Shown here: positions 31,767-64,000 of the stretch, piece after piece
Numbering within the stretch: position 1 is the first letter of the stretch
Layout: each line of letters opens with the position of its first letter
Origin: Eledone cirrhosa
Taxonomy: Eukaryota
Direction of reading: 5' to 3'
Assembly (NCBI GenBank): GCA_964016885.1
Contig: OZ024741.1
Span: 352,966,001-353,030,000 of the forward strand
DNA: 64,000 nucleotides
Program-made: the position numbers and the translations under genes
The notes under the pieces: generated by a model
Databases searched by the model: none
The model's input: only the letters and a program-made list of their open reading frames with translations
What the model was told of the DNA's origin: nothing

Positions 31767-31816
<50 letters not shown>

Positions 31817-31845
31817 TATTATTATTATTATTATTGTTGTTATTA

Positions 31846-34800
31846 CTCTTTGAGTCTCAGTCATTGATGTTAGTTAACTGGAAAGTTTGTTGAAATGAAT
31901 ATCAAGCCACTACCTGCAGCCTCAGATATTCAGGACGTATCGGAGGGTTCTTGCTGTTCCCAGCAAGCATGCCTTTTGAAGCGTTCCAAAAAGCGTGAAG
32001 GGGCCAATTTTCTTTAACCATCCCTGGAAACTTTTTGAGATAGTCCCTAGTGCGCCTATGACAATCGGGATCACTTTGACTTCATGGCAGTGTTTACACT
32101 CTGGATACAATGTGAGCCACAGTCTCCTCTCTCTCTCCACAGATCCTGCACCGTGGGCTAGCCTCCTCCTTGTAAATATGGTGTTTCAACCACTTCGTTT
32201 TGAGGGCCTGCTCCTGCGCAGCCATTAACATTCCTTCTGTAGCCTTTTTAAGGTCTCCTCTTTTTAACCAGTTCCATGTCTGTGGATCTCTAAATTCAGT
32301 TTTCTCAAAGAAGGTACTATGAAGGAATTTTTCCTGAAGGCTGCTCTTTCTCCTTGATGTTATTTCCTCCTTGGACATCCCCTGGCCTATTGTCCCCTCC
32401 TTCAGTACAGTTCTGAGCATTGGCTCCTTACTATCAGTCACGTATTTGTGTAGGTTGTTTTTCTCCATCTGAACACAGTCCTCTATGCTGATAAGACCTC
32501 TTCCACCCTCAGATCTCCTTAAGTAGAGTCTATCGACATCACTCCTCTTGTGGAACATGTTGTAGATAGTCAATAGCTTCCTAGTCTTCCTATCCATTTC
32601 TTTCTGTTCAGCAACATTCCATCTCAGAATTCCCGCACTGTACCTAATAATAGACACAGCTCGGGAATTTACTGAACTTATGGCATTCCTACTGTTCAGA
32701 TGTGACTTTAATACGCTCCACACTCTCCGAATGTATTCAGTTCTTATCAATTCCTTCATTTTTTTGTTCTTGATGTCATCAGCCTCCAGAACACCCAAAT
32801 ACTTGTATCCTTCTTCAGAGTCAATTTCCTTTATCATCTCACCCGTTGGTACCTGGATTCCGTTACTTCTGCTCAACTTACCCCTCCTCATCACAATGAC
32901 TCCACACTTACTAATACCAAATTGCATACATATATTATTGGTGAAAATACGGACAGTGTCAACAAGCACATCCGACTCCTTCTCACTCTTCCCGAAGAGC
33001 TTAAGATCGTCCATGAAGAGGAGGTGATTGATGGTAAGGCCTCCCTTTCCCAACCTGTATCCTGCGCTCACTTTTCGCAGTACACTGGTCAGGGGCATCA
33101 GGGCAAGGACAAACAACAGAGGGGACAGACTATCTCCCTGGAAGATACCTCTCTTGATCTTCACGCTTCCCAAGGATTCTCTAGTTGATGTTAACTCTGT
33201 TTCCCAGGACTTCATAATTTTGCCCAACAACTGTCTGATCTTATCTGCCACCCTGAAGATCTCCAGGCTTTTGGTGATCCAAGAATGAGGCACCATGTCA
33301 AATGCCTTTTTGTAGTCTATCCATCCCATGGCAAGACCAGTGTGTCTCCTCTTGCAATTCCTCATTACCATCTTATCAATAAGTAACTGGTCCTTTGTAC
33401 CACGTGACTTATTTCGGCATCCTTTCTGTTCGTCCGGTAACAAGTTGTTTGTGTGGAGGTGATGGTAGATTTCCTCAGACATAATGCTTGTCAACAGTTT
33501 CCACATTACGGACAGACATGTGATAGGTCTATAGTTGGTAACATCATTACCCTTGATTCGGTCTTTCATTATCAGAACTGTGGTACCTTTTGTCAACCAC
33601 TCTGGTACCTCACCTGACATCAAGCAGTCATTGAACATGGTTGTCAGTTTCGGGTGGAGGGATGTTATATTTTTAATCCAATACCCCTGCACGCCATCTG
33701 GATCTGGTGATTTCCAGTTGGTTAGTTTTTTGGCTTGCCCCTTAAGAGTTTCAACTGTGATACTCAAATCAGTTTGTTGGTGTGCCTGTTCACTAATCTC
33801 CTTCTGTACTGTCTCAATCCACACTGCCTGGTCATTATGTTTAACATCCTGCTCCCATATTCCTCTCCAGAATGTTTTAGTTTGTTCCGCCTCAGGGATC
33901 AAGTCGTTGCCTCTTTCTTTCCCTTCAAGCTGTCCAAACAGCATCTTCTGGTTGTTGTCGAACATGCGGTTCTGTCTATACTGACTGACTCTGTTCTCGT
34001 ATCGCCTGATTTTTGCACTCTTTGCTACAATGCGTTGCTTCAGTTCCTCTATGATAATATTTAGCTTTTTCCTCCTAGTTTTGTACTTTATTTCCAGTCT
34101 ATTTTATGTGTCTATGTTTTTTAGTGTCCCATTCAGTAGGGACTCAAGCATTCCAATGTCATTTCTCATTTCCCTGATTTGACCATTCAGTCGTTTCTTC
34201 CACCAAGGCTCTGCTCTTTCTTGTCTGTTGTTTCCTCTCGCTTTTATACCAAGTAGTTTCCTCACCGTATTTGCTGTTGCTTTGAGGATATTGTTGCACT
34301 CGTGAAGGCTCCTCGCCTCAAGGTATGGGATGACTTTGTTTACCTTAGCTGTTGTTTCTTTTAACTTTTTCCTGTCTACAAATCTTAGGTTAATAGGTCT
34401 CCCACTATCATTGTTCAATTCATCTACCACTAAGTTTAGGATATCAACCAAATCTTGTCCTAGCCCATCAGCATTCATCTCCTCAGTGGCCGTATCTCTG
34501 TTCCAGGTATTATTTATCTCAGCATTCAGATCATTGTCTGCTTCGGGTGGTTCCTCCGTTCTCTCGACCTCTTCACCTTCATCTCCCACTGGCTCGTTTG
34601 CCTGGCATTCTCCACTCTCCATCTCCAAGCTAATCTCTCTGCTCAGTTCCTCCAGTTCCAGCTCGCTTATCCACCCATTAGTTCTTATTACCCGAGCCTG
34701 CCCGGCCAATTTTTGTTCATCTAATTTAAATAGACCAATCTCGTTCCAGATGTTATGCATCCGTTTCCTATAGCCTTTCTCCTTGGGGTTACTCTTCAGG

Positions 34801-36429
34801 TAACATTGCATAACAGTTCTCTTCAATTCTTTCGTCCAGTTGGTTCTGGTCCCTTTCCTTCTTCTTCTTCCTCCGACACCAGCAGTATTTGGTTGACAGC
34901 CAGGTCCCTGCTGCTGAGCCAGGGAGCACCTGTTGGGTGAGAGTCTGTCACATGACATTCTAGTCTCCATTTCACCGTTATTCGAACTGTTTAGGTTCGA
35001 CATTTAAACACTCTTATCGAGGATTGGCGAATGTATGGTTACATAACCACCGGTGAATTCATCGTCTCCGGTGGTTCCGTCACTCCACACGATTTTTGTG
35101 TGGCATTATCACGCTGTAGACGAACATAAATAAACAAACAAACAAACAGGCAAAAAAAAAACCAAAAATGAATACGCATAAGTTTCATTGTAATGTAGTG
35201 TTTGAATGTCTGACTTAGTTTTTCCCTTCCCTTCTCTGTCCGTCTGTTTGTTTTTCTCTTCATTCTTATTTTCTTTACGTTTTTCGTTGTTGCTGTGCTG
35301 CTTTAATTTTGATTTTTTTTTTTTGATTTTGACCGGGTCATAAATTCAGTCTATTTATATATTTTGATGGCTTCCTCTTTTAGTGGGGTTTCTACGATGT
35401 AGCAGGGGGTAGCGGGAGAGAATAGCAGCGGTAGTGACAATGAGGCAGTGGTGGTGGTGGCGGTGCTGTGCTAGCAGCAACTAGCAGGAGGTAGTGGGAG
35501 AGAATAGCGGTGGTAGCGATAAATCATTATTAGGCAGTGGTGGTGGTGATGTGGTCGTATTACTGTAGTGATGGTGTTGAAGTTGGAGTAGAAATAGCGG
35601 CTGAGTCGACTTAACCAGAGTTTTCATCGTGGTAGTGGTGGTGGTGTTGGTGGTGAAATTATCTTGAGTTATTTAGTCATTTTGTCATTTTCCTCCTTTT
35701 CGACTCTAACATTCCTAATCCAAAATTAAATATTAATCTTGTTTATTAATATTGTCTAGTGATACCGCCATCTTCCCCTTTCGTAAGTTAACAGAAGGTA
35801 ATGGGGGGGGGGATAGCGGTGGTAGCAATGAAGGAGTGGTGGCGGCGGTGATGGGATAGTGGTAGTAATGATGGATGGGCGGCGGTGGCGGTGACTGTAG
35901 TGATGGCGTTGTCGTTACTGAGTTTTGTTGAATGAACTGTATTTTTGTTTGATCGGTGAATCTATGGGGTTAGTCGCGTATATGTGTTGACATATTTTCT
36001 TAATATTGGAATTAAACATTTTGTTAAAACTTAATTATTATGCTGAGATTGGTGGTGGTGGTGGTGAAATTGCCGTTATCTGGCTGATGTGTTTAGTGTA
36101 GACAGAGGGGTGATGGGGTAGGTGGTGTATCTAGTTTCTGGTGTTGGTGAAATTGCTGTTATTTGGCTGTTCTATATAGTGTAGACAGAGGGGTTTTCTT
36201 CCATTTATAACCATTTTCTTTTTTGAATATAAAATGTATTATACAAAATTGAATATTTGAGCGATATAACAATATATTATGGATCCGAATTTTTTGGGAC
36301 TCAAGCCGGATGTTTTATGTATCATTTGTACTAAGAATTGTTATTTCACAATTGATTTAAATATGTTAAAAATCAAAACTTACGGGAGCGATTTCACGAC
36401 CTTCTATCCACCATGTGCGTCTTCTGCCC

Positions 36430-36430
<1 letters not shown>
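31846..36430 (-). mobile_element. R4/Dong-clade non-LTR retrotransposon copy A, near full length, bounded by (TAA)n
   Basis: Single ORF from ATG 35003 to stop 31922 (broken) with RT motifs YRPITCL, GIFQGDSLSPLLF and FMDD, and CCHC CRICGEREETVAHIVS. (TTA)n at 31816-31845 and 36431-36481. The 5' boundary is inferred. Confidence 0.9.
31922..35003 (-). pseudogene. R4/Dong polyprotein (RT-CCHC-RLE) with a stop, a frameshift and an RLE deletion
   Basis: ORF pieces 34104-35003, 32094-33965 and 31922-32140. ECKH is fused directly to CHEVKVIP, unlike copy B. Confidence 0.9.
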
Positions 36431-36481
<51 letters not shown>

Positions 36482-39400
36482 GAATGCTATGGTTGACGGA
36501 GGCTCGGCTCTGTAAGGTATTGTAAATTTTGAACGCTATAACAATTGTAAATTGTTTAAAACTTTAACGAACTTGTAGACAAAAACACCCTCCTCCTCGT
36601 GAGAGGGGTCTTTCTGCCCGTTATTTGGCCCTTCGGGGTTAAATAACTGCTTATTGGGGTTTTGTACCCAATATTTATTTTAAACAAAAAAAAAAACAAC
36701 ATGGCTACGAAAAAGAAATTTCATAGGTCACTCCCACTCATTCCGTCTTCTTCTTCCTCAATCATCACTACAGCAGAGTGAAGATTGTCTCTCTCCCTCC
36801 CTTCTTTAAATGTGTCCCTCTCCCTCCCTTCTCTTTCGCAAGCGACGAAAGAAAAGAAAAGTCTCGTGCAAAGCGTGCAAGGTTTCTCCACGACGACGAC
36901 GACAGCGACGAAACAGGTGTGCGGGAAATACGAAAACCCAGTTCATTCGTCTGACGTCAGGAATAATAGCAGTAGCAGCCGTAATAACAACAGCAACAGT
37001 GACAATGAAAACAACAGTAGCAGCCGCAACAGCATCACCAGCAGCATAAACAACAACAGCATTAGCAGCAGCAACACCAACAACAACCACAGCAACAGCG
37101 GCGGAGGCAGTAGTCGTAGTACCTGCAGCAACAACAAAAGTAACAGCAGCTCTGACGACAACAACAACAACAGCAGCAAAGAAAAACCAATCTCATTTGC
37201 AGGTATTTCGAAAAACTTGGAAACAATCCTCATAACAAATGAGGAATTAGAGGAAGCGAAGAAGATGGTGACAAAGAATGGAGACCGAGCAATCTGCAAG
37301 GCAGCGGAAACATTTTTCGAAACCCAACAGCACTGTACGGTCACGTACCGTACAGTAAGTACAAAATCCCGTAGGGTGGAAAGAGCCACAGAGGCTCAAA
37401 TACAAAAAGCCTTGGGGTCTGTGTGGCAGCGGAAAACGCACATCACCCGAGGCAAAAAATATGCCACCGTAGACGTACTTTTTGCCACACCCCAGGAGGC
37501 AAAGGCCCAATCCGTAGTGACCCTAAGGAGCGAGGAAATGGTGTTGGTGCCCTCCTACTGCGGGCAAAAAATTGTGAGGGTCAAACTGACCCACGTCCCC
37601 CCCGGAATGGCCCCTTCTTGGCTGGCCGCGTCTGTCCTCGTCGGAATCGAGGACAAAACAACTGTACTGCAAGTACAGAAAAAAGTAAGAGAAGATTGGG
37701 TCGGCACCTCTATTGAGATGCTAATCCAAACCAACCAGGAGTGCATCGAAGCTATCCCGGATGTGATAGACTTCGATAACGGCACTCAACTGCCCATAAG
37801 TGTTGAGGGCAAACGCCCGAAATGCTTTCGCTGTGGATCGAAGACTCACCTCAGGGCCTTCTGCAACGAGAAGACCCTGAGAAAGGAGAAAACCCCCTTC
37901 CTTCCGAAACAGGCTCCACGGCTACCAGCAACAGGACAAGCGGCAACCAGGAACGATAGGTCCGTGGCACCCATACCCACGCCACGGAAATCAAAAACAG
38001 CAGCAGCAGTGGAAATATTAACAACAACAACAGCAATACCAAATGCAGCTGCAACAGAGACTCCAGTGCAAACATCACCAACAACAACAAGTGAAAGAGT
38101 GGAGCTGGTACCCATCCCCGACCTCACAGAATCAGACATGTAGTGTGAGGTGGGAGAGGGATGGCAAAAGGTCGTAAGAAGGCACAAACGCAGAAGCAGC
38201 GCATCGTCGCCTTTGAAAAGGGAGGAAAGAAATGAGAAAAGGGTAAAGTCTACTGCAAAGAGACCCACAGCAGCAACACCACCAACACCATCACCACCCA
38301 CACTAGCACCAACATCACCACCGGCGACAACCCCACCGCCAACAACACCTTCAACACCACCACCACAAGCACCAACATCGCAAACACAACAACAAAACAC
38401 ACACACCCAGCAACAACGACAAGAAAATAGCAGAACCACACCCCACCCCCAGAAAAACAAATGCACGGCAATAAATACACACAACAATAAACTAATGACT
38501 TACATAATTGAACACACAGACATTTCACAACACGGCTACATAATACCAGCACCAATCAAAACGCCAACTAACATAAGACTGCTAAAAATAGCACAGAAAC
38601 AATACACAAACATTAAAACGAAATTCCCCAACGCAGTTGGTGATTTCAGGGACCTAGGAGGAACTATCAATCGAAGAGTATATTCAGACATTCTCATAGA
38701 AGAGCCGACGACCAGCCGAAGGGACGATTCAACGGTCCCTTCACCAGACGATCAAGTGAAAAGGGATGTAAAAACCATCCCTCCTCTACCAAAAGTACGG
38801 TAAGTGATCTTTCCCATCTTTTCCACTCTATTTTAAACATGACCTCACTCAGAATAGGCAGCATAAATGTGCGTGGCTTGGGGTCGTCATGGAAGCAGGG
38901 TCACCTGCTCAACGACCTCAGGTCACTAAACATAGATGTAGTGGCCATCAGCGAGACCAGAATCTCCGAAGCACGGGCCTTCGCACCGATCTTCGGCGGC
39001 TACGATGTGTACGCATCTCCCAGCCGTCCTGGATCGGGGGGAGGAGTTGCTGTGCTTTTTCGGAGAGGTTTGGATCTCGCCATACGGGCCATCTTCCTGG
39101 ACCCAGAGGGTAAGCTGGTGGTGCTGGACGTGACCAGTGGAGACGGGCAAGCTTTCAGGCTAGTGGCCGTCTATGCCCCGACAGGGGCAGGGCGGCCTGA
39201 TTTCTTCCGGCGTCTGGAGACCTTTCTTGGAACGTCCCGCTTTTTAGTGTTAGTGGGCGACTGGAACGGGATTTTAGATGCACGCTGGGACTATGTGGGA
39301 TTAGCGAATAGGGGTGGAGGGTGCAAGAGCCTCACCAACCTGCTCAGGCATTTTGAACTGTCTGACAGGTACCGATTGGATTTCCCGAATGTGCCAATGT

Positions 39401-41369
39401 GGACTTGGACAAATCGCATAGGGTCATCCAGATCATATCTAGATAGAGTATTTTGTAGGGAAATAGATAGGACTAGCATAGGCTGTCCACAATTCAAGAT
39501 AGTCAGCTACACGGACCACAAATTCGTGATCTGTGTGCTTGACTTAGATAGGCTTCATAGACGAGGACCCGGCTACTGGAAGCTAAACGCGTCCTTACCA
39601 GCGCGCAAGGCCTACAGAAACCGGATTAGCGAACTAGTTAAGCGGGCGTTGACGGGGGGCCATCGTCAACAACAAGTAGTGGTTTGCTCTGAAAAGAGCG
39701 ATTAGAATAGAATCCATTAGGTTTAGTAAGGCTTTAGCAATAGAGAAAAATAGAGCAGAGGGAGAACTAGTTAGAAAATTAGACGAGGCGCTTAGCAAAG
39801 GCATCGCGACCGACGTGCTTGCGGCGAAATTGGCCCTTGACGAATTCTTCAATGCAAAGCACGAAGGCTGCGTTATCAGAGCTAGGGTGCGTGCTCTCAG
39901 ACACGAGGGGACGAAAGCCGTTCAATGGGCCCGAGTGGCGGAGGCGCGTCGTGGCAACAAAGCCACGATCCGGTCTTTGGTGGACCACGACAGGCGCATG
40001 CTACTCGATCCCGGGCAAATGTGTGAAGCTTTTCAGCGACACTTCGCTCAGCTGTTCGGGGGCAGCGGTGGGCCGGGTCGAGGGATGGACTTTAGTGTCT
40101 ACCTCGACGGACTGCCGCGGCTCTCGGCCACTGAGGCGAAGTGTTACGAAGAGCCGATAACAGCCGCTGAAGTAAGGGAGGCAATGACTGGCTGCACAAG
40201 GGGTAAATCGCCTGGTTTGGATGGTCTGTCCTATGAACTTTACGTACAGATGCCAGACTTGTTCGGAGGCCTCTTGGCGGACGTCTACTGCAACTGGCAA
40301 CAGAACGGGAGAATTCCCAGCTCTGTGAGCCGAGGAACGGTGGCACTTCTGAGAAAGGATCCGAACAAGGGGGATAACATAGATAATTTCCGGCCCATAA
40401 CTCTGCTAAACACAGAGTTCAAGATTTTGGCCAAGGTGCTAGCAAAGAGGTTGGCGCTTGTCGTTGGTGGTCTGGTGGGAGAGGCGCAGACATGCGCCAT
40501 TCCCGACAGATCCATCCACGACAACCTCCACCTCATGCGATACATCGTAGAGAGGGTAGCTAGGGAACCTGGCACGGGTGGGTCCTTGATTAATTTAGAT
40601 CAGTCGAAAGCTTTCGATAGGGTCGACCATTGTTACCTAGCGGCAGTCCTGAGGGCGGCTGGCGTTGGGTCCGTCTTCAGAGGCTGGATCGCTGCCATGC
40701 ACAGCGACATCTGCTCTGTGGTGAGAGTGAACGGTCACCTTTCGGAACCGTTCAACATCATGCGCTCGGTCCGCCAAGAATCTCCCCTCTCGTCCCTCTT
40801 GTAGGTATTGACTCTCGAGCCATTACTGCACAAACTGGAGACGTTGAGGGGCGTCCCGCGCGAACTATGATGCGGAAGATCCGTGTCAGCATATGCGGAC
40901 GATGTCACCGTAGTGCTGTCGAACGCCAAACACATCGAGGCGATCGGCACTACACTAAGAGAATACGAAGCGGTGATAGGAGCAATGATCAACCAGGAAA
41001 AGTCAGTGGGCCTGCAGCTCGGCACCTGGAGAGGCAGGTCCATGCCGTCCAACAGCGTCTGTAGTTTGAGAAATGGAAAAATTGAGAGAGGGCGCTTGCC
41101 ATGGTGGTCAGGGTGGCCGTGGTCTTTTGTTTTGTTTTCGCCACGAGTAACCCTCGGAGGTTTTCCCCCTATTGGGGAATTTTTCATTGTTTCAATTTTC
41201 ATTTTTATTGTTTATATATATATATGTTTCTATGTCCTTTTTTTTTCTTTTCTTATATAAATAATAAAAATATTTACACGCACAAAACCCACATCGTACC
41301 GTCCTGTACCGTCCTGTGCCGTCTGTAATGTTTTTCTTGATGTCAGCCCTTGTGGCCAATAAAGAAATC
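36482..41369 (+). mobile_element. ATT-type Tx1-clade LINE with an intact 5' end and the ORF2 C-terminal third missing
   Basis: ORF1 36701-38803 has two in-frame stops and CFRCGSKTHLRAFC. ORF2 from 38839 has APE and RT (AYADD) and jumps at 41059 to the stop and 3' UTR. (TTA)n on both sides. Confidence 0.94.
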
Positions 41370-44338: not shown

Positions 44339-44752
44339 TACGTCCCTTTACGATCTGAGTTCAAATCCCGCCGAGGTTGACTTTGCCTTTCATCCTTACG
44401 GGGTCGATAAAATAAAGTACCAGTAATGCACTGGGTAATTACTGGCCTTGTGCCTAAAGTAGAAACAATTATTTATTTCAGCATTCAGATCATTGTCTGC
44501 TTCGGAATCTTCCTCCGTTCTCTCAACCTCTTCACCTTCATTTCCCTGCTGGCTCGTTTGCCTGGCAGTGGATTGGCAGTATCGGTAGAGGGTCGGACGC
44601 CATGCTTTCCAGCATAGTTACGTCCCTTTATGATCTGAGTTCAAATCCCGCCGAGGTTGACTTTGCCTTTCATCCTCACGGGGTCGATAAAATAAAGTAC
44701 CAGTAATGCACTGGGTAATTGCTGGCCTTGTGCCTAAAGTAGAAACAATTAT
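44339..44752 (+). mobile_element. Two SINE insertions inside Dong copy B (44339-44467 and 44568-44747)
   Basis: The family core occurs twice, both copies ending at attatttattt, separated by a duplicated host segment. Confidence 0.92.
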
Positions 44753-45617: not shown

Positions 45618-45832
45618 GCCGTGGTTAACTTTGCCCTCCATCCCCACGGGGTCGACAAGACAAAGCACCAGCAATGCACTGGGCAATTGATGGCCTTGTG
45701 CCAAAAGTAGCAACAATTATTATTATTATTATATCATACGGGGTCGATAAAACAAAGCACCAGCAATGCACTGGGCAATTGCCGGCCCTGCGCCAAAAAA
45801 AAAAAAAATAGAAACAATTATTATTATTATAT
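45618..45832 (+). mobile_element. Two 5'-truncated SINEs in (ATT)n within the Dong B 5' region
   Basis: ggggtcga(c/t)aa..caaagcaccagcaatgcactgggcaattg occurs twice, each copy with an ATT tail. Confidence 0.85.
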
Positions 45833-48536: not shown

Positions 48537-48561
48537 ATTATTATTATTATTATTATTATTA

Positions 48562-51500: not shown

Positions 51501-51875
51501 TTAAATCAGTAATGTTTAGTTTGTTTGTGATGATAATGTTTTTGAGAATTATGTTAGTCTTGTGTATTATCTTTTGGTTCTGTTTGGAGTTCTGGATCTT
51601 AGGGAGGGTGTCTCGTTCCCCCATGTCAGATTCTTTCATTTTCATCCATTCGATCATAATTTCATCCTTCAAGTTGGCAAGTTCATTCTCATTCATTTCT
51701 TTATCATTTACGATCTCATTGTTTTCATTCTGAGTTTCATCTTGAGCATGCACTCCCTCCACTTTTTCGATTCTTTCTTTAATTTGTTCTGTTGTCAGTG
51801 ATTCTGCCCCAAACCTGGGATTCGGAGTGTTACAATTTACCTCGTTTTCACTGACACATGTTTCATATTCCCTTC

Positions 51876-51876
<1 letters not shown>
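48562..51876 (-). mobile_element. R4/Dong-clade copy C (a second, divergent family), 5'-truncated, in (TAA)n
   Basis: NYRPITCL, GIFQGDSLSPLLF, YMDDLKLF and RLE RPDIILKD..LLIDMSVP..KYKDL, with a stop at 48707. (TTA)n at 48537-48561 and 51877-51911. Confidence 0.92.
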
Positions 51877-51911
<35 letters not shown>

Positions 51912-54900
51912 GGTCTAAGCGGACGTATTTTGCTCGCTCACAGTAAGTCGCTTTATTTGCCTGTTTAAATTATTTGTTGTTAAATATTTCTTGTTGTGTA
52001 AGGGATATAAGCCCTTAGACTTTGCCCCGTGAATGGGGAAAGTATAATATTTGGGCTTTTTGGCCCAAATATTTGAACTTTTTTTTACATGTTAAAAAAT
52101 TTACGAAGAAAAAAAACATGGCTGAGCCACGCCCCCCAGCGATATGTCGGCTGTCGTGCGACAACGACGTAGAAGTTGAGAGGAGCGCTACAGCGAAATT
52201 AACACAAATTGATAACACAAATACCACCACAAACAATGTAAACAAAGACACCAATGATACCAATGAGAACTCTAATTTGAAAAAAATGACAGTAACAGCG
52301 ACAACGAAAATACAGATAACAAAAAAAAACAAAACAAATAGAACAACAATATCAACACCACTAACATGAAAACAAATAGCGACAACACCAACAGCAACAA
52401 TACCAACTGCACCGAGAACAACGGTGGCAACAAAGACAACAATGATAACAGCGAAAGTGCTAACAACAACACCAACAAGAACAACGTCAACAACACCCCA
52501 ACGAAAACAAGACCACTTTCGCTGCGGCAGCAGCAAAAAAGAGGCCATGCTTCAACATAGACCTCTCAAACAAAGATGAAAAGTTGGCCCAGGCATGGAA
52601 GCTCATCAAGCAAGAGCAAATTTGGACCAACTTAACTGTCCCGGTAGAAGCTATTGAGGCAGTGGAGCGCAAAACGGTGCATTATAGATGCATCTCAGCA
52701 CAAACCAAAAGGGCAGCGTTAATCCCACAAGAAGATGTCGAAGTCGCGCTGAGCTGCATCAGAGAAGACACCCAGTACATAGAGAGGGGCAGACAGTACG
52801 GCACCATTTCGGTGTTGTTCAAGTCAGAAACCCTCGCTATGAAACACGCTATGACTCCTTGCAAAACCAGCAAGGTCATAATGTACCCCTCCCACATGGG
52901 AAAAAGAACGGCCCGTCTCCGCATTCCCAGAATCCCACCAGGACTTGACATGTGGTGGCTTCTGGGATGTGTGATTGTGGAGGGGACGGATACAGTCCTT
53001 ATAGAAGTGACCAGAACGGCCAGAGAGGACTGGTCTGGGGTTGACCTGGAGATCCTTCTCCAGATCAGGCCCGAGAATATGAAGACAATCCCAGACCACA
53101 TCCGCCTTCAGAATGGGACTGTCATTCACATTATGACCGAAGGCAAAAGGCCGCAGTGTTTTGTTTGTGGGGAAAAAACCCATTTGCGAGCCTTCTTCCC
53201 TCAACTGCTGAAAGAGGCAAGGGGTCGAAAGGCTCCACTGTTGGCTCCACAACCAACACCTGCACCGGCTAAACCACCACCAACAACACCAATAGAAAGA
53301 CCACCACCAACATTGACCACCCAGGGGGGAAACGAGGAAAGCTGTCAAATTCCCCCTCTCCCCCAAAATACACACACCAATAAAACCTTAAACATACATA
53401 CAGACACACTTACAGACACAGACCCCTTATCTACCAGTAGTGAAAATGAGGGAAATCCCAAATCCCTCAAAATACAAAAAAGGAAACACAAAAAGAAAAA
53501 AAAAATCAACAAAGCACAAAAGCACCACAATAAAAAACGCAGACACCACCCACGCAAACACCTCTCCAATAACACCAACATCAACACCACCATCACCATC
53601 ACCAGAATCCCCCAAACGCAAACAACCGAAACAGACGCAAGAACAAATATACACACAAACATCTGAAACCACAGACACCGCACTCACAATAAACACAGAT
53701 ACAATCGAAACAACACCACCAAAACCATCACCACCACAGCCACGCAAACAAATAAAATCACACCAACAAAACATACAAAACTTCGTGCTTGTCAGGAGGG
53801 TCAACAAGGAACTTATGGCCCTCTTAGCACGAAGTGAAAATATACAAAAAGAGGGGGACATTTTTAAATCGAGCACATTTCGCGTGCCGGAAGATTTGGT
53901 TCTGGTGCGAATGTCACTCGACATATTCAAAGAAATACGAGACAGCTTTCCTCGGGACGTGGGAACCCCGAACGTAAAACCTACTTCATGACTTTTAAAG
54001 GGGTTCCCAAAAGCCTCAACAACCTGATCAGCCAGTTCCAACTGTCTGACAGGTACCGACTAGATTTCCCTAATGCGCCAGTGTGGACCTGGGCTTACCG
54101 CATAGGGTCATCTAGATCGTATATAGACAGGATATTCATTAGGAAAATAGACAGAAATAGTGTAAGCTGTCCACGTATTGAAACGGTCGCCTATTCAGAT
54201 CACAAGTTTGTGATCTGTATGGTCGACCTAGATAAGACGCGTAGGTTAGGACCTGGTTACTGGAAGCTAAACATATCATTTCCGGCACGTAAGGCTTACA
54301 GGGACCAGGTGAACAATTTAGTTAAGAAAAAGTTGACAGGGGGAGGCGTCAACAATAGATGGTGGGGGGGCTCTCAAAAGAGAGATTAGAGTAATGTCGA
54401 TAGAGTTTAGCAAAGAGGTAGCATTAGAGAAAAATAGAAAGGAGGGGGAGTTGTTAGATAAGTTAGACGAGGCTATTGGTAGTGGCATTGCAACTTGTGT
54501 GCTAGCGGCGAGAATGGCATTAGACCATTTCTTCAATGCGAAACACGAAGGTTGCATTGTCAGAGCTAAGGCGCGTGCTCTGAGAAACGAGGGAACCAAA
54601 GCTGTTAGATGGGCCCGCGTGGGAGAGGCGCAGCGTGGTAATAAAACCACGATTCAGTCTTTGACGGACCGAAACGGGCACGAGCTGAGCGATTCCAAGA
54701 GGATGTGTGAGGCCTTTCGCCAACATTTCGCTCGGTTGTTCGGGGGAAGTGGCGGGTCAGAGATGGTGGTGGACTTCAGTCCCTACCTCGATAGCTTGCC
54801 GCAACTCTCGAAGGCTGACGCTGGGCGCTGCGAAAGGCCAATTACTTCAGCTGAGATTCAGGATGCCCTTGTAGGCTGCATGAGGTGCAAGTCACCCGGT

Positions 54901-57221
54901 TTGGATGGTTTGCCCTACGAGCTTTACGTAAGTATGCCAGACTTGTTCTCCAATCTCCTCGAAGCCCTCTACTGCAACTGGCAGAAAAACGGGAGTATTC
55001 CCAGTTCTGTGAGCCGGGGCGTAGTGACGCTGATAAGGAAAGACGAGAACAAGAGGGACACATTAGACAATTTCAGGACCATAACTCTGCTCAACACAGA
55101 GTTTAAGATTTTGGCCAGGGTGTTAGCGAAGAGGTTAGCGCTTGTCGTCAGGAATTTGGTTGGGGAGGCGCAAACTTGCGCAATCCCGACCAGGTCCATA
55201 CACGACAACCTCCACCTAATGCGATACATCATAGGGAGGGTAGGGTGTAAACCTGGCTTCGGTGGGGCTCTGATCAATTTAGACCAATCGAAAGCATTCG
55301 ATAGGGTCGACCATCGGTACCTGGAGGCTGTCCTCAAGGCAGCTGGCTTCGGCCCCGTCTTCAGAAGCTGGAACGCTGCAATGCATAGCGGCACCTGCTC
55401 GATGGTCAAAATTAATGGCCACCTCTCGGAACCGTTTCAGGTCTCCCGATCGGTCCGTCAAGGGTGCCCTCTCTCCTCCCTTCTGTACGTATTGACTCTC
55501 GAGCCTTTACTGCGGAAGCTGGAGCTGTTACAGGGCATCGCGCTCGAACCGGGGCGCGGAAAGGCTGCGTCGGCTTATGCGGACGACATCACCGTGATGG
55601 TGTCGGACACCTCAGAAATCGAGGTGGTCGGCAACTTATTGGAGGAATGTGAAAGGTTGACTGAAGCAAAACTTAACCCGGAAAAGTCAGTAGGCTTGCA
55701 ACTCGGCACCTGGAGAGGCAAGTCCATGCCCTCCAACAGCGTCGTTAGGCGCTGGACGGACGGACCGGTAAAGTTGCTAGGGGTTTGGTTCGGGCCAGAC
55801 TACAGGTGGATAAGATTTGAGACGAAGTGACGGGCAGGGTAGTCAGTCTCACCCAGAAATGGGCTGGGATGAAGCTATCACTGAAAGGTCGGGCGGAGGT
55901 GGCGAATGAGTACATCGCGTCCGTCATCTACTACCGTCTGACTGTCGTCCCTTGCCCCGTTCGCGCCTCGCCATCTTGGAGCGGCTCCTCTTCAAATTCT
56001 TGTGGAGGGGTCAGGTTCCGGTGGTGAGTCAGTCCATCTGCTGCCAGCACCCTCTACGTGGAGGGCTGGGCATGCCGTGGCTAATGATGCGCAGGCACGC
56101 GCTGATGCTGCGGCATCTCCAGATATTCTGCCTAAACGGTGAACAGGTGTGGTTGCCGTTTGTCAGACGGGCCTTTCCGCAGCTCGTTTCTTTGACTGAG
56201 TTGCAGTCCTGGGTCAAGAAGAGACCGAGACTGGGTGACTGGCATCTGGAATGTTGCCAGGCACTCACTGCCCTCTACCAGGCGGGCAATGTGGTCAGTG
56301 GAACTTCCACTCTCGAGTTCTATAGAGGATTAGTGGTGGGCAAGTGCGACGACGCACTCGGAGAGGCTCTGGGAGTCAACGAAGTCGAACTAACCAGTCT
56401 GTACCGGAGGACTTTCGAGCTGGGGACGATGGATAATTTCCAAAAATCCCTCGCTTGGCAGTGCTACCGGGGGGGGGGGGGCACTGCCGGTTCGAGATAA
56501 ACTCTACAGGCACGGAAGTGCTGTCAGACGGACCTGCCCGAGATGCGCACAGAGCGACGAAACCGTTCTGCACGCACTCGTCCAGTGTCCGTGCATTACT
56601 GACTTGTGGAGTTATGTTGAATAGCTGTTGTCGCGTGTAGAACGGATCCGGCTATCGGCCGAGTCCATAGTGAAGATCGACCCGCCGCCTTCTTTTGGCC
56701 AGGAAGGGCAGGCAATTTTCCTCTGTCTGGTGGCAGTAGCGAAAGAGGTTGTATGGTGGACGAGGTTGAAAGGACTGAAGACAGACACTTTTCTCTTCGG
56801 CCAATCCCTCATCAACTTTTTCAAGTTTCACTTGGAAAGGAAGGTGAGGGTGGAGAGTGAAATGCTGCCCCCCAGTACATTTGCTGAAAGGTAGGTGAAT
56901 GTGGCGAGAATCGCCCGTGTGAGTGGGCCTACTCTGGTCATGCGGCTGTAGGTAGGTAAATTTGAAGAGGAGAGGGGTGCCCTTCCAGGGTTCTCTCGAA
57001 GCGTCGGGTCGTTCAGGACTGGTGGGGTACCTAAGCGAACCCTAGGTCGTCATCCCCCCTATTGGGGAATGTTTTCTTGTAATTTTCTTCTTACTTTATT
57101 GTTACTTTGTTATTGTTACTTTGTTTATTTATATTATTTACTCGATTTTTCTGTAAAACCCCACTGTTCCAGTCTTTTGTATTGTCCCCTATATGTCGGC
57201 CCTTGTGGCCAATAAATGAAA

Positions 57222-57223
<2 letters not shown>
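51912..57223 (+). mobile_element. ATT-type Tx1-clade LINE with a distinct ORF1; ORF1 end and APE N-half deleted
   Basis: ORF1 from ATG 52118 (CFVCGEKTHLRAF) is fused near 53995 to mid-endonuclease (SYIDR, SDH). RT at 54394-55830; 3' end gcccttgtggccaataaatgaaatc plus (ATT)n. Confidence 0.94.
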
Positions 57224-57256
<33 letters not shown>

Positions 57257-57262
57257 GTTATT

Positions 57263-58012
57263 CTTTGAGTCTCAGTCATTGATTAACTGGAAAGTTTGTT
57301 GAAATGAATATCAAGCCACTACCTGCAGCCTCAGATATTCAGGACGTATCGGAGGGTTCTTGCTGTTCCCAGCAAGCATGCTTTTTGAAGCGTTCCAAAA
57401 AGCGGGGCGGCGCCAATTTTCTTTAACCATCCCTGGAAACTTTTGAGATAGTACCTAGTGCGCCTATGACAATCGGGACCACATTGACTTCATGGCAGTT
57501 CCAAATCCTTTTTACCTCCCACTTTAAGTCCTGGTATCGGTTAATTTTCTCCCTCTCCTTCTCTTGCACTCTCGTGTCGAATGGGCAGGCCACATCTACA
57601 ATCAGGCACGATCTTTTTTCTTTGTCCAAAACCACCAGGTCAGGTCTATTGTGTTCCAGTTTCTTGTCCGTCTGTATCCTAAAATCCCACAGCACCTTCA
57701 CCTGATCGTTTTCTATCACCGACTCTGGCTTATGCTCATACCACTTCTCAGAATGTGGTAAATTGTTTACTTTGCATAGGTGCCAGTGGATCACCCTGCC
57801 CATCAGGTCTCCAGCCCTTATAGTGAGTCTGGGCTAGGTGTTTACACTCGGATACAATGTAAGCCACAGTCTCCTCTCTCTCTCCACAGATCCTGCACAG
57901 TGGGCTAGCCTCCTCCTTGTAAATATGGTGTTTCACCCACTTCGTTTTGAGGGCCTGCTCTTGCGCAGCCATTAGTATTCCTTCTGTAGGCTTTTTAAGG
58001 TCTCCTCTTTTC
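57263..58012 (-). mobile_element. R4/Dong-clade copy D (family A/B), 5'-truncated RLE end
   Basis: CRICGEREETVAYIVSEC and RPDLVVLD..IVDVACPFD; same 3' UTR as A and B; (TTA)n on both sides. Confidence 0.93.
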
Positions 58013-58030
58013 AATTATTATTATTATTAT

Positions 58031-58242
58031 GGGCGGTGGATTGGCAGTATCCGTAGAGTGTCGGACGCAATACTTTCCAGCATAGTTACGTCTCTTTACG
58101 ATCTGAGTTCAAATCCCGCTGAGGTTGACTTTGCCTTTCATCCTTACGTGGTCGATAAAATAAAGTACCAGTAATGCACTGGGTAATAGCTGGCCTTGTG
58201 CCTAAAGTAGAAACAATTATTATTATTATTATTATTATTATT
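58031..58242 (+). mobile_element. Full-length SINE in (ATT)n
   Basis: gggcggtggattggcagtatcc...gagttcaaatccc...ggccttgtgcctaaagtagaaacaattatt. Confidence 0.92.
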
Positions 58243-61200
58243 GGTTGGTGAAGCCACGCTTCTTATCGCCTCCAGTCTTTTTCAACGTTTTACCTCTTTT
58301 TCAACCGTTCTAAACCTTTTATTCAAGTTTTAAATTTGATAAAAGTTTAGAAGAAGTGACCCACCTAATACAGGGGTTCACTAGTAAATAATACGGCACC
58401 CCTTTACGGGGTGTCGTATTCGTATTTGTGTAAAAATATTTTTTGAAAAATTTCAACATGGATAACACAAAAAAGAGAGAGAGCGCTGTCAGACAACACA
58501 GAGGGAGAGGGAGACTTTATCAGCATGTCAACAAGACAGCGTTCCAGCGGAGGTAAATATAAACGAAAATATTACAAAGGAAAAAATGATTGTTACAGAT
58601 TTAAAATTAACAAATATTTCTAACACAAACAAAACCAACAATAACACCAACAACATCACCAACAACAACACCAAAAATAACAGCGGTAAAGTCGAGAAGG
58701 ACAATAACAAAAATAACAGCGGTAAGGTCGAGAACGACAATAACAAAAATAACAGCGGTAAGGTCGAGAACGACAATAACAATGACAATAACAACAGCCA
58801 CAACAACAATAATAGTAGGAACAGTATCAACAAAAACAACAATAATAACAACAGCCACAATAACAGTAACAGCAGCAACAGTATCAACGAAAACAACACC
58901 AACAACTGTACCAACGAAAAGAACAACAATGACACCGATACCTGTTATAGCGACCTCAGCACCACCAGTAAGACCAGTAGCGGCAGCAATAGTGGTGCTG
59001 CTGAAAAAGGGACCACTTCTTTTGCAGGTGTCGCCCGAAATATCGAGACAGTGTTAGTCACAGAGGAGGAGATGGCAGTCGCAAGGGCCATGGTGACAAG
59101 AAGCGCAAATAGAGTTTCCCTGAAACCTCCACCCGATTTTTTCAAGGACCAGCAGCTACGAACAGTGACTTACCGCACCGTAAGCAAAATCTCACATCGA
59201 GTGGAGAGAGCCACGGAGGCTCAAATCCAAAAGGCCTTGGGTGCGTCTGGGCACGCAAAACCCACATCACCCGAGGCAGAAAGTACGCCACAGTAGACGT
59301 ACTTTTCGCCACCCCCCAGGAAGCAAAGTCTCACTCTTTGGAAACCCTAAAGAGTGAGGAGTTAGTTTTGGTGCCCTCCTACTGCGGGCAGAAAATTGTG
59401 AGAGTCAAAGTGACCCAGGTCCCACCCGACGTGCCCATACCTTGGCTGTCCGCGCCTGTCCTTGCTGGAATTGAGAACCGGGCGACCATGCTGCAAGTAG
59501 AAAAAATAGGGAGAGAGAACTGGTCAGGTATAGGCATGCAAATGCTTATACAAACTGACCAGGAATGTATCGAGGCTATCCCCGATATCATAGACTTTGA
59601 GGAAGGACTCCAACTCCCTATAAGTGTAGAAGGAAGACGGCCAAAATGTTATCTCTGTGGGTCGAAAGGTCACCTCAGGGCCTTTTGCCCGCAGAAGACA
59701 CCGAAGAGGGCCCCTCTCCTTCCAATACCTGATCCGCTGCTACCAAGAGCAGGACAGGCAACACACGAAGAAGCCCCTTCCACGGTGAGTAGGAGGGCAA
59801 CGTCCGTAGCACCCGTACCAAGGCCACGGATAACTAAAGCAGCATCATCAGTAGCGGCAACACCAATAGCTACATTTGAAATAGCTACACCAGCAACAAC
59901 ATTGCCGAAGAGGGCTCCACTACCACCACCAACAGTCGTGGAGCACATACCCCTCCCAGACGCCACAGAATCTGACATGGAGTTTGAGGCGGGAGTAACG
60001 TGGCAAACAGTCTGCCACAAAAAAGAAAAAAGAAAAAAACCCTTAGATTCACCCTCCAAAAGCGAAGGCATACAAAGAGGGGTAAAGGCAGCAAGGAAAC
60101 TTGCAGCAATACCACCACAAACACCAACAACGCAAACACAACAAGACACACACACCAAACAGCAACAAGAAGAAAACGGCAACAAAATCACCCCTCCCCC
60201 CAAAAAGTACACAGCCATAAACATGGCAAAAAAAGAACTCATAAAATATATAAAGCACAACACAAACATCACGGAAAAAAATTACTACACCCCACCAACA
60301 CCAAGAACTCTCCCGACAAACATAAGCATCATCGAAATCTCAATAGAACAATACAAACCTTTAAAACAAAAATTCCCCAACGCAGTTGCAGACTTCAGAG
60401 GGACGGTTACCAAGAGGATATACACTGACATCCTCTTGGAAACACCCATGACCAGCGAAAGGGACCGTTCTACTGTCCCTTCACCACACGAACAAGGTAA
60501 GTGACCCTTTCTCATTTGCCCCGTTTCTCATCCAATATGGCTGTACTCAGAATAGGCATTATAAATGCACGTGGCCTGGGGTCATCTTGGAAGCAGGGTC
60601 ACCTGCTCAATGACCTCAGGTCACTAAACGTAGATGTGCTGGCCATCAGCGAAACCAGAATCTCCGAGGCACGGGCCTTCGCACCGATCTTCGGCGGCTA
60701 CGGTGTATACGCATCTCCCAGCCGTCCAGGATCGGGGGGAGGGGCTGCCGTCCTTTTTCGGAGAGGCTTGGATCTCGCGATACGGGCCATCTTCCTGGAC
60801 CCAGAAGGTAAGTCGGTGGTGCTGGACGTGACCGGCAGCGAAGGCAATGCTTTCAGGCTAGTAGCCGTCTACGCCCCAACAGGGGCAGGACGGCCAGATT
60901 TCTTCAGACGTCTAGAGACCTTCCTTGGAACGTCCCGCTCTTTAGTGTTAGTGGGCGACTGGAACGGTAGCTTGGATGCGCGCTGGGATCGTGTGGCGCT
61001 AGTGGATAGGGGAGGAGGGTGCAAGAGCCTCACCAACCTACTCAGACGTTTTGAACTGTCTGACAGGTATCGACTGGATCACCCGAATGTGCCAATGTTG
61101 ACATGGACAAACCGCATCGGGTCATCCAGATCGTATCTAGATAGGGTATTCTGCAGGGAACTAGATAAGGCTAGTATAAGTTGTCCACAATTTAAAATAG

Positions 61201-64000
61201 TCGACTACACAGACCACAAATTTGTGTTCTGTGAGATCGACATAGACAGACTTTATAGACAAGGGCCTGGTTACTGAAAGCTGAACGCGTCTTTCCCGGC
61301 GCGCAAGGCCTACAGAGACCGGATTAGCGTATTAGTTAAGCGGGCGTTGACGGGAGCGGTCGTCAACAACAGGTGGTGGTTCGCTCTGAAAAGGGCAATT
61401 AAAGTAGAGTCGATTAGGTTTAGCTAAGGAGTAGTGATAGAGGAAAATAGAGTAGAGGGAGAGCTAGTCAGAAAGCTAGAAGAGGCGTTTAGGACAGGCA
61501 TCGCAACCGACGTGCTTGCGGCGAGATTGGCACTCGACCAATTCTTCAACGCAAAACACGAAGGCTGCGTTGTCAGAGCTATAGCGCGTGCTCTGAAACA
61601 CGAGGGGACAAAAGCCGTCCAATGGGCCCGGGTGGCAGACGTGCGACGTGGCAATAAAGCCACAATTCGGTCTTTGTCTGACCAAAACGGATGCGTGATG
61701 CCCGAACCCGAGCGGATGTGTGAAGCTTTTCACCAGCACTTTGCTGAACTGTTCGGGAGCGGCGGCGGCCCGGATCGGGGCATGGTCTTCAGTGCATACC
61801 TCGACGGACTGCCTCGGCTCTCGACGACCGCAGCACAGTGTTGCGAAAAGCTAATAACAGCCGGTGAAATACGGGAAGCGATGGCTAACTGCACAAGAGG
61901 TAAATCGCCAGGTTTAGATGGTCTGCCCTACGAGCTTTATACATTTATGCCAGACTTGTTCGGTGACCTCTTGGCAGACGTCTACTGCAACTGGCAGCAG
62001 AACGGGAGCATTCCCAGTTTTGTGAGCCGGGGAGCAGTGGCGCTGCTGAGAAAAGACCCGAACAAGGGGGATGCTATTGATAATTTCAGGCCCATAACCC
62101 TGCTAAACGCAGAGTTCAAGACTTTGGCCAAGGTGTTAGCAACGAGGTTAGCGCTTGTCGTCAAGGGTCTGGTGGGAGAGGCGCAGACATGCGCCATCCC
62201 GGACAGATCCATACACGACAACCTCCACCTCATGCGATACATCATAGAGAGGGTGGTTAAAGAACCTGGCAAGGGTGGGGCCCTGATCAACTTGGATCAA
62301 TCCAAAGCATTCGATAGGGTCGACCATCGGTACCTGGCGGCGGTCCTCGAGGTAGCCGGTTTCGGGCCCATTTTCAGGCGTTGGATCGCAGCAATGTACA
62401 GCGACATCTGCTCAGTTGTGAGGGTGAACGGTCACCTGTCGCAGCCGTTCAGTATCATGCGCTCAGTCCGCCAGGGTTGTCCCTTCTCGTCCCTCTTGTA
62501 CGTATTGGCTCTCGAGCCGTTACTGCACAAACCGGGGGCGATGAGGGGCGTCCCACGAGAACTAGGATGCGGGAAATCCGAGTCGGCTTACGCTGACGAC
62601 GTCACCGTGGTGGTGTCGAGCACCAGACACGTCCAGATGCTCGGCACTGCTCTCAAGGAATACGAAACGGTGACAGGAGCAAAGATAAACCAGGAAAAGT
62701 AGGTGGGCTTGCAGCTAGGAACCTGGAGAGGAAAGTCCATGCCGTCCGACAGCGTCGTGGGGCGTTGGACGGACGGACCGGTTAAATTGCTCGGGGTCTG
62801 GTTCGGACCGGACCTCCAGATGGAGAAAAACTGGAACGAGGTGACGAGCAGGGTGGCCTCCCTCACCCAGAAATGGGCTGAGAGGAAGCTGTCCCTGAAA
62901 GGCCGGGCGGAAGTGGCGAATGCGTACATCGCATCCGTCATCTGCTACCGCCTCACCGTCGTCCCTTCGCTCCAGCCCAACTCTCACCAAAATGTAGCGC
63001 CTCCTCTTCCGCTTTTTGTGGAAGGGACGCGCTCCCATGTTCAGACGATCCATCTGCTGTCAACACCCGTTGCGTGGAGGACTGGGCATGCCATGGCTGA
63101 TGATGCGCAAACATGCGCTGAGGCTGCGACATCTCTGGTGTTTCCTTGACGGTGAATAGGTGTGGTCGCCGTTCGCAAGGCACGTTTTCCCACAGCTCGT
63201 CTCCTTCACGGAGCTGCAGTCCTGGGTCAGAAAAAGACCGAGGGATAGCGCTTGGAAACTGGAATGTCTCCAGACGCTCACTGCCTTCTGCCAGCTTGGC
63301 ACCAGTATCGGTGGAACATCCACCTCGGCGTTCTATAGAGGACTAGTGGAAGGGAAGTGCGACGACATTCTCGGAGAGATCCTGGGCGTCGAAGATCAGC
63401 TGTTTGCTCTCTTCCGGAGAACTTTCGGCCCGGGGCCTATGGATAACTTCCAAAAATCCCTGGCCTGTCAGTGCTACCGGGGAGCGCTGCCGGTTCGAGA
63501 TAAGCTCTACAGGCACGGAAGTGCCGTCAGCCGAGCCTGTCCGAGATGCGCGCATAGCGACGAAACCGTTGTGCACGCACTCGTTCAGTGCCCGAGCATT
63601 GCTGACTTGTGGAGCTATGTCGAACAGTTGCTGTCACGTGTGGGACTGATCCGGTTGTCGACTGAGTCCATCGTGCAGATGGTCTCGCCGTCTTCCTTCG
63701 AGGAGGAAGGGCAGGCGGTTTTCATCTGCCTGGTGGCCATGGCGAAAGAGATTGTGTGGTGGACAAGGTTAAAAGGATTAAAGACAAACACTTTCCTCTT
63801 CGGCGAATCCCTAATTAACTTTTTCAAGTTTCACTTGAAGAGGAAAATCAGGGTGGAGAGGCAAGTGCTGCTTTCTAGCAAGTTTGTTGAAAGGTGGGTG
63901 AATGTAGCGAGAATGGTCCGAGTGAACGGGACCACTCTGAATATACGTCTGTAGTTTGAGAGATGGAAAAGTTGAGAGAGGGCGCTTGCCCTGGTAGTCA
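58243..64000 (+). mobile_element. ATT-type Tx1-clade LINE, essentially full length, 3' UTR runs off the window
   Basis: ORF1 58458-60504 is Asn-rich, has CYLCGSKGHLRAFC and is frameshifted. ORF2 60537-63954 has APE, RT (AYADD) and CCHC with several stops. Preceded by (TTA)n. Confidence 0.95.

What the first reader, a model, noticed from the sequence alone, without database searches (positions are those of the whole stretch)
31816..64000. 32-kb alternating Dong(-)/Tx1(+) array on a shared (ATT)n landing pad
Seen: the order is DongA(-), Tx1(+), DongB(-), Tx1(+), DongC(-), Tx1(+), DongD(-), SINE(+), Tx1(+), with (ATT)n at every junction except about 46430. Polarity is absolute: RLE elements end in (TAA)n and APE elements end in (ATT)n, so they prime on opposite strands of one repeat. 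Known: Dong targets TAA repeats. Inference: each insertion regenerates target for both clades, giving a self-growing array. Perfect alternation is 2 of 70 possible 4+4 orders, although one pair may stem from a rearrangement. The convergent/divergent layout could yield antisense read-through RNA and a piRNA-cluster-like trap.
Basis: partly seen in the sequence, partly recalled or inferred. Interest (0 to 1): 0.75.

Follow-up and report, generated by a model that had tools for sequence, protein, structure and literature searches.

The report
Two retrotransposon kinds stack on ATT
Two unrelated kinds of jumping gene sit in the same ATT repeats, facing opposite ways, and pile into long mixed stacks across this probably octopus-type genome, likely because each cuts its own strand of the repeat and leaves a repeat for the next; the strict alternation seen here breaks just past the window and is probably chance.

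Summary
The array is real: four Dong-like RLE LINEs (-), four Tx1-like APE LINEs (+) and a SINE, joined by (ATT)n at every junction but 46436. It runs on past the window: a fifth, very young Tx1 follows Tx1_4 directly, so the order is D-T-D-T-D-T-D-T-T (about 38.4 kb; P=9/126). In 1.27 Mb sampled around element ends on contig C1, junctions were TD 57, DT 46, TT 27, DD 59 (odds ratio 1.65, p=0.13; pooled with a second sample 1.70, CI 0.99-2.91). Only 1 of 29 chains of four or more elements alternates. Strict alternation is not a rule, but a mild cross-clade bias is not excluded. Polarity holds at 172 of 177 tract-bearing junctions. Stacking is real: 61 of 95 long ATT tracts touch such a LINE and 34 lie between two (OR 6.6). 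Best reading: two independent microsatellite-targeting LINE clades regenerate a shared target, as TRAS/SART do on telomeric repeats. An ATT target for Tx1 was not found in the papers searched. The piRNA-trap idea is untested. The scan noted the same phenomenon at eight other loci of this genome.

The parts
31767..31845 (+). Left end: (ATC)17 running into (ATT)7 plus imperfect units; likely the original compound microsatellite
   Evidence: 'original' is inferred
31846..36429 (-). DongA: RLE-type LINE of the A/B/D family, with both ends; about 340-nt deletion at 32090/91 removes part of the C-terminal region; one stop at about 34104
   Evidence: RVT_1 3e-24; 90% aa to intact copy P0001; self-alignment
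36430..36481 (+). (ATT)17, head-to-head junction
36482..41369 (+). Tx1_1: chimeric APE-type LINE. 36482-41059 belongs to the Tx1_5 family (97%); 41060-41369 is a Tx1_4-family 3' end (91%, against 67% to its own family's end); CGTC microhomology at the join
   Evidence: microhomology read
41370..41384 (+). (ATT)5, tail-to-tail junction
41385..46435 (-). DongB: same family as DongA (90%), frameshifted. SINE pieces at 44335-44473 and 44564-44753 with a 233-nt tandem duplication; SINE fragments and ATT tracts at 45602-45839; 5' tip (about 46275-46435) inverted
46436..48536 (+). Tx1_2: 5'-truncated, starts inside the RT region, no tract at its head; 94.5% to Tx1_5
48537..48560 (+). (ATT)8, tail-to-tail junction
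48561..51876 (-). DongC: second Dong family, 5'-truncated; 89-95% aa to intact copy P0002
51877..51909 (+). (ATT)11, head-to-head junction
51910..57223 (+). Tx1_3: another Tx1 family (74-77% nt to the others); the N-terminal part of the endonuclease region is missing
57224..57256 (+). (ATT)11, tail-to-tail junction
57257..58013 (-). DongD: 757-nt 3' fragment of the A/B/D family
58014..58242 (+). (ATT)5, 187-nt SINE (58029-58215) with ATT tail, (ATT)9
   Evidence: the SINE label rests on length, copy number and tail; no Rfam match
58243..64000 (+). Tx1_4: third Tx1 family with both ends; ends 245 nt past the window and is followed by (ATT)6, Tx1_5(+) (L091:2264-8290; open frames of 702 and 1161 codons; up to 99.7% to other copies) and (ATT)13

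Best explanation
This is one of many mixed stacks in this genome where Dong-like (RLE) and Tx1-like (APE) LINEs sit in (ATT)n repeats in opposite orientation, likely because each clade independently nicks its own strand of the repeat and leaves a tract on both sides, so the order within a stack is close to random. Inferred steps: by target-primed reverse transcription, Tx1 (tail ATT) would be primed from a nick in the AAT strand and Dong (tail TAA) from a nick in the ATT strand. Each insertion splits or duplicates the tract, adding one target. Tracts next to LINEs are longer and more often hit again, so stacks grow. Deletions, 5' truncation and SINE insertions then erode them. The run of alternation here is a chance run, cut short in view by the window edge.
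For: Two architectures: a single ORF with RT, CCHC, RHD, PD..D and K..Y motifs whose best solved relatives are R2 proteins, against APE-RT-CCHC nearest L1 ORF2p among solved structures, with Xenopus Tx1 among its homologs. Copy numbers from exact patterns (lower bounds): 14,435 ATT-tailed Tx1 ends, 5,145 DongA-family ends, 544 DongC ends, against 31,790 V(ATT)7 tracts. Tail tracts: Dong 126 of 131, Tx1 83 of 97; head tracts 100 of 131 and 59 of 97; 30 of 30 full-length Tx1 heads have a tract. Polarity 172 of 177. Of 95 consecutive long tracts, 34 have a LINE on both sides, 27 on one, 34 on none (OR 6.6, p=3e-5); LINE-flanked tracts are longer (median 12-13.5 units against 8, p=4e-5). All four junction types are common. 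The youngest copy, Tx1_5, landed beside another Tx1. Window copies come from three Tx1 and two Dong families at 74-97% identity, so the array is not a tandem duplication.
Against: Cross-clade junctions run slightly above expectation in both samples: 54.5% against 48.7%, second sample OR 1.95, pooled p=0.054. Purely random order may therefore be slightly wrong. Nick positions and strands were not measured. No empty site was compared, so target duplication is inferred from flanking tracts. Whether long tracts attract insertions or insertions lengthen tracts is not resolved; regional bias or purging of solitary copies could also produce the clustering. The sample comes mostly from the first 69 Mb of C1, is anchored on element ends, and junctions within one stack are not independent.
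Confidence: 0.8

Rival explanations
1. Weak real bias toward cross-clade neighbours. Same-clade neighbours are direct repeats and are lost more often by deletion or recombination, or each enzyme prefers a tract flanked by the other clade, so stacks drift toward alternation.
For: Pooled OR 1.70 (0.99-2.91, p=0.054). Tx1_1 is a two-family chimera that could be a collapsed Tx1-Tx1 pair.
Against: Tract-only pooled OR 1.43 (p=0.22). Only 2 family-switch elements were flagged among 245 elements of 500 nt or more, and only 1 of 29 chains alternates. My merging rule can fuse same-clade neighbours and so inflate the OR. The chimera could also be an RT template switch.
Confidence: 0.12
2. Obligate partnership: one clade targets the other's end, or Dong-Tx1 pairs move or duplicate as a unit, giving strict alternation.
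For: Seven cross-clade junctions in a row in the window. Tail-to-tail junctions like the window's recur: 49, 14 and 10 alignments among 377 loci (overlapping loci not removed).
Against: The array ends T-T. 86 of 189 junctions are same-clade. 0 of 11 chains of five or more elements alternate. Window units are different families. Tail-to-tail recurrence is expected because tails are fixed ends.
Confidence: 0.02
3. Passive accumulation: the tracts are only the elements' own tails, and copies pile up because insertions into repeat-rich DNA are tolerated.
For: A SINE and a third, CR1-like family also end in ATT; Tx1 head tracts are missing in 38 of 97 copies.
Against: 30 of 30 full-length Tx1 heads and 100 of 131 Dong heads abut a tract, which a tail cannot supply, and head-to-head junctions carry tracts as long as tail-to-tail ones (median 10 against 9). 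Fixed polarity needs strand-specific recognition.
Confidence: 0.04
4. Misassembly: the assembler joined repeat copies at microsatellites.
For: Every junction but one is a simple repeat.
Against: Neighbours are different families or 3-25% diverged, polarity is fixed, and the same architecture occurs throughout the C1 sample, which random mis-joins would not give.
Confidence: 0.02

Closest known systems
TRAS1Bm and SART1Bm in (TTAGG/CCTAA)n telomeric repeats of Bombyx mori (PMC7265360, passages read)
   Same: Two LINE families insert into one short tandem repeat in opposite directions; target choice is set by the endonuclease recognising two to three repeat units, regardless of flanking sequence.
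   Different: TRAS and SART are close relatives with the same endonuclease type (both R1-clade APE: recalled) and sit at telomeres. Here one is RLE-type and one APE-type, and the target is a dispersed trinucleotide microsatellite at thousands of interstitial sites.
Dong, R4 clade (B. mori Dong, DongAg, DongBg, Darwinula Dong1/2; PMC3812793 and PMC7998251, passages read)
   Same: RT plus REL endonuclease, no N-terminal zinc fingers, (TAA)n target, known in molluscs. Dong-R4 and L1-Tx1 are both listed as recently active in Octopus vulgaris (PMC13282606, passages) and as expanded in coleoids (PMC8967140, passages).
   Different: Two families 35% identical share the target here and stack with Tx1; the passages read do not describe such mixed stacks.
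Kibi (TC)n, Koshi (TTC)n and crocodilian Tx1 in (TTCC)n/(TTTC)n (PMC4494074, passages read)
   Same: Tx1-clade APE elements with a microsatellite target; tandem insertions that sandwich a target duplication are described there for the Tx1-mobilised SINEU-3.
   Different: The (ATT)n target, and the (TATC)n target of a sister family in this window, were not found in the papers searched. Kojima and Fujiwara 2004 could not be read and Repbase was not available.

Membership tests
R4/Dong clade | Single ORF with RT followed by CCHC knuckle and restriction-like endonuclease | tested here: met
   P0001 (1135 aa) and P0002 (1216 aa): RVT_1, CxxC..H....C, RHD, RPD..D, K..Y; RLE stretch aligns weakly to an R2 structure
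R4/Dong clade | No N-terminal zinc fingers (unlike R2) and no APE domain | tested here: met
   No CCHH/CCHC motif in the first 400 aa; no Exo_endo_phos match
R4/Dong clade | Insertion in (TAA)n repeats | tested here: met
   Tail tract 126 of 131, head tract 100 of 131; DongC tails 30 of 30
R4/Dong clade | RT groups with named Dong/R4 references in a tree | tested here: inconclusive
   None of the 120 listed homologs carries a name; the tree has no named Dong, R4, NeSL or HERO row
R4/Dong clade | Divergent N-terminal SANT/Myb-like domain (PMC7998251) | not tested
   No profile-profile search of the N-terminus was run
Tx1 clade (L1 group) | ORF1 plus ORF2 with APE, RT and C-terminal CCHC | tested here: met
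   P0003: Exo_endo_phos, RVT_1, zf-RVT; Tx1_5 has frames of 702 and 1161 codons; weak zinc knuckle in Tx1_4 ORF1 (E=0.004, below cut-off)
Tx1 clade (L1 group) | RT phylogeny places it in Tx1 rather than L1 | tested here: inconclusive
   Three of the six named homologs are Tx1 proteins, Xenopus Tx1 at 298 bits for residues 65-900 against human L1 at 182 bits for the whole protein in a different search; the tree has no L1 row and leaves the node open
Tx1 clade (L1 group) | Sequence-specific target | tested here: met
   14,435 of 21,684 Tx1-type ends are followed by ATTATT (the rest include TATC-tailed families); 30 of 30 full-length heads abut a tract
TRAS/SART-like opposite-strand sharing | Fixed opposite orientation in one repeat | tested here: met
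   172 of 177 tract-bearing junctions
TRAS/SART-like opposite-strand sharing | Endonucleases nick opposite strands of the repeat | not testable with these tools
   Inferred from orientation and target-primed reverse transcription
piRNA cluster / transposon trap | Long precursor transcript and piRNAs mapping to the locus | not testable with these tools

The most novel reading that the evidence does not exclude
An RLE-type and an APE-type LINE clade have converged on opposite strands of (ATT)n and occupy about two thirds of the long ATT tracts of this genome; their stacks are shaped toward cross-clade neighbours (OR about 1.7) by loss of same-clade direct repeats or by mutual target preference, and the convergent pairs feed antisense RNA into silencing.
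Probability: 0.12. Interest if true: 0.6.

Novelty: new variant of a known kind. Interest (0 to 1): 0.33.

Why it matters
It shows two different endonuclease classes using one dispersed microsatellite from opposite strands, a dispersed counterpart of TRAS/SART. It also gives a simple route by which tens of thousands of LINE copies pack into self-renewing stacks that hold most long ATT tracts (61 of 95 sampled). The ATT- and TATC-targeting sister Tx1 families are a natural pair for studying how an APE endonuclease changes target. The headline alternation itself is not special.

Tried and rejected
Strict alternation: rejected. By hand, about 2-3 alternating chains would be expected among the 29 at even odds; 1 was seen. 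Tandem duplication of a Dong-Tx1 unit: rejected, because the units are different families. The idea that tails add longer tracts than heads: no support, with median tract units TD 9, TT 9.5, DD 8, DT 10. Collapse of same-clade pairs as a common event: only 2 of 245 elements flagged, one of which looks like two separate Dong copies. Assembly check: contigs of four public runs (at most 2 samples, 1 study) laid on 40700-52300 and 46200-46520 gave only short pieces, and none of those listed bridges a junction; inconclusive. No RNA holder listed. Rfam: no match in 31600-64000 at E<=0.1. A genome-wide count of tail-to-tail junctions was not obtained, and the planned sample of Dong heads (70 places) was not analysed, so the DT:DD ratio rests on the 112 segments alone. 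The RT tree could not place the elements among named clades. Papers: passages only were read of PMC4494074, PMC13282606, PMC3812793, PMC8967140, PMC4640811, PMC7998251, PMC7265360, PMC4824008, PMC8557442 and PMC1635306; no supplements were read, and target tables there or in Repbase may list an ATT-targeting Tx1. Kojima and Fujiwara 2004 and Xiong and Eickbush 1993 were not held. A search for cephalopod piRNA clusters with Dong listed 3 papers, none on this by title or start of abstract. Two further look-ups of earlier findings returned nothing.
Full report
Setting. The window is G000:C2:352,966,001-353,030,000 of a 3.0-Gb assembly. The nearest named homolog of the Tx1-type protein is from Argonauta hians (73% identity), so the host is probably an octopod. 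This is an inference; I did not identify it further.

1. The observation. Self-alignment, tract search, Pfam and translated searches confirm the order DongA(-), Tx1_1(+), DongB(-), Tx1_2(+), DongC(-), Tx1_3(+), DongD(-), SINE(+), Tx1_4(+), with (ATT)5-17 at each junction except about 46436. The left end is (ATC)17(ATT)7. All copies inside the window are broken by stops, frameshifts, deletions or truncation. The array does not end at 64000. Tx1_4 finishes 245 nt further on and is followed by (ATT)6, a fifth full-length Tx1(+) and (ATT)13, then non-element DNA. The whole array is about 38.4 kb and reads D T D T D T D (s) T T. The chance of eight or more runs among 4+5 elements is 9/126 = 0.07, not 2/70. 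The fifth Tx1 is the youngest by identity (up to 99.7% to other copies, against 95-98% for the rest) and has open frames of 702 and 1161 codons. The latest insertion therefore chose a tract beside another Tx1.

2. What the elements are. Intact copies elsewhere give P0001 (DongA/B/D family, 1135 aa) and P0002 (DongC family, 1216 aa), 35% identical to each other. Each is a single ORF with RT, CCHC knuckle, RHD, PD..D and K..Y motifs and no N-terminal zinc finger, and the best solved relatives of P0001 are R2 proteins. With the (TAA)n target this matches the R4/Dong description in PMC7998251 and PMC3812793 (passages). No named Dong sequence was retrieved, so membership by tree is open. P0003 (1204-residue frame) is APE-RT-CCHC, nearest L1 ORF2p among solved structures, with Xenopus Tx1 among its homologs. 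The tree had no L1 row and does not separate Tx1 from L1. The window holds three Tx1 families (74-81% nt between them) and two Dong families, so it is not a duplicated unit. Tx1_1 is a chimera: its body is 97% to Tx1_5, and its last 310 nt are 91% to Tx1_4's end and 67% to Tx1_5's. DongB's 5' tip of about 165 nt is inverted, with the breakpoints abutting in an uninverted copy (L120:3593/3596), the geometry of twin priming (the term is recalled from L1).

3. Genome-wide context. Exact patterns give lower bounds: 21,684 Tx1-type 3' ends, 14,435 of them followed by ATTATT; 5,145 DongA-family ends; 544 DongC ends; 31,790 tracts of the form V(ATT)7. I fetched 140 of 151 planned stretches around the first-listed Dong ends and the first-listed Tx1 ends on C1 (Tx1 ends of the GCT variant left out). 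They were merged into 112 segments of 1.27 Mb and annotated against a library cut from the window and loci. Of 201 junctions, 57 were Tx1-Dong tail-to-tail, 46 head-to-head, 27 Tx1-Tx1, 59 Dong-Dong, 11 of opposite polarity and 1 with a TATC-type Tx1. The odds ratio for cross-clade neighbours is 1.65 (CI 0.90-2.99, p=0.13), or 1.32 (p=0.43) for the 172 junctions with a tract. A second sample took 30 DongC tails, 30 Tx1 tails and 30 full-length Tx1 heads. After dropping 9 loci that overlapped earlier ones or each other, DongC tails had 10 Tx1, 11 Dong and 6 no neighbour; Tx1 heads had 15 Dong, 7 Tx1 and 3 none; Tx1 tails had 8 Dong, 4 Tx1 and 17 none (the last set was not pooled). The pooled OR is 1.70 (0.99-2.91, p=0.054), or 1.43 (0.81-2.50, p=0.22) with tract-bearing junctions only. 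One of 29 chains of four or more elements alternates strictly, and none of 11 of five or more (chains are cut by segment ends). Alternation is thus no rule. A mild bias is neither shown nor excluded, and my merging rule may undercount same-clade pairs.

4. Polarity and target. Of 177 tract-bearing junctions, 172 keep Dong(-)/Tx1(+) relative to ATT. Of the 11 opposite junctions, 6 have no tract and most look like internal inversions. Among copies with both ends in view, Dong has a tail tract in 126 of 131, a head tract in 100, and both in 96; Tx1 in 83 of 97, 59 and 55. All 30 full-length Tx1 heads abut a tract. A tail cannot supply a head tract, so the elements go into existing tracts. Of the first 100 V(ATT)7 tracts on C1, I examined 95: 34 have a Dong or Tx1 on both sides, 27 on one and 34 on neither (two of the flanking Tx1 are reversed). 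The two sides are strongly associated (OR 6.6, p=3e-5), and flanked tracts are longer (median 12-13.5 units against 8, p=4e-5). The pattern favours tracts that start at Tx1, SINE or CR1-like tails, so the 64% figure may be high.

5. Mechanism. Shown: two architectures, a shared tract, fixed opposite orientation, tracts on both sides, stacking beyond independence, mixed order. Inferred: under target-primed reverse transcription the nicked strand becomes the cDNA strand, so Tx1 would nick the AAT strand and Dong the ATT strand. Each insertion leaves two tracts where there was one. Longer tracts, regional preference or survival bias then concentrate later insertions. Untested: the nick sites, empty sites, and any RNA effect.

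6. Known relatives and novelty. TRAS1Bm and SART1Bm insert in opposite directions into one telomeric repeat (PMC7265360, passages). Dong on (TAA)n and microsatellite-targeting Tx1 families are known, and both superfamilies are reported as abundant and recently active in octopus. An ATT target for Tx1, and RLE/APE sharing of one microsatellite, did not appear in my searches; the key 2004 survey and Repbase could not be consulted. Eight unreviewed notes of this scan describe the same phenomenon at other loci of this genome; my reading was set before I saw them, and my own counts agree with them. Verdict: a real, genome-wide variant of known microsatellite targeting; the alternation headline does not hold. 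Interest 0.33.

Noticed in passing
window 4282-11872: A second stack, of one clade only: Tx1 3' fragment, (TATC)13, 5'-truncated Tx1 (4431-6040), (TATC)12, long Tx1 (6093-11770), (TATC)26, all on +. The protein is about 68% identical to the ATT-type ORF2 in its C-terminal half, so a sister family appears to use another microsatellite; the same is seen at L070.
   Followed up: partly
L251, L254, L262, L266, L272, L280 and others: A third family ends in (ATT)n and forms the left flank of 12 of 95 long tracts (counted by eye; sequences). It may seed new tracts.
   Followed up: partly
window 58029-58215 and many loci: The SINE has the same polarity as Tx1 and a similar last 30 nt before its ATT tail, so Tx1 may mobilise it; not tested beyond this comparison.
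   Followed up: partly
window 44335-44846: SINE inserted into the DongB ORF at an ATTT-rich site, with a 233-nt tandem duplication at 97.9% identity.
   Followed up: no
L128:5042-9987: About 5 kb of tandem 45-nt units that match the first 46 nt of the SINE: possibly a satellite born from a SINE head.
   Followed up: no
window 1-2060: Broken retroelement-like region; a stretch near 1590-1660 reads like a GIY-YIG endonuclease of a Penelope-like element (by eye, label recalled); Pfam gave no match for two frames there.
   Followed up: no
window 24411-25949: Two 699-nt direct repeats, 96.9% identical, each ending in (TATG)n.
   Followed up: no
L157, L174, L198 segments: Internal or 5' inversions without a tract in both Tx1 and Dong copies.
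   Followed up: no
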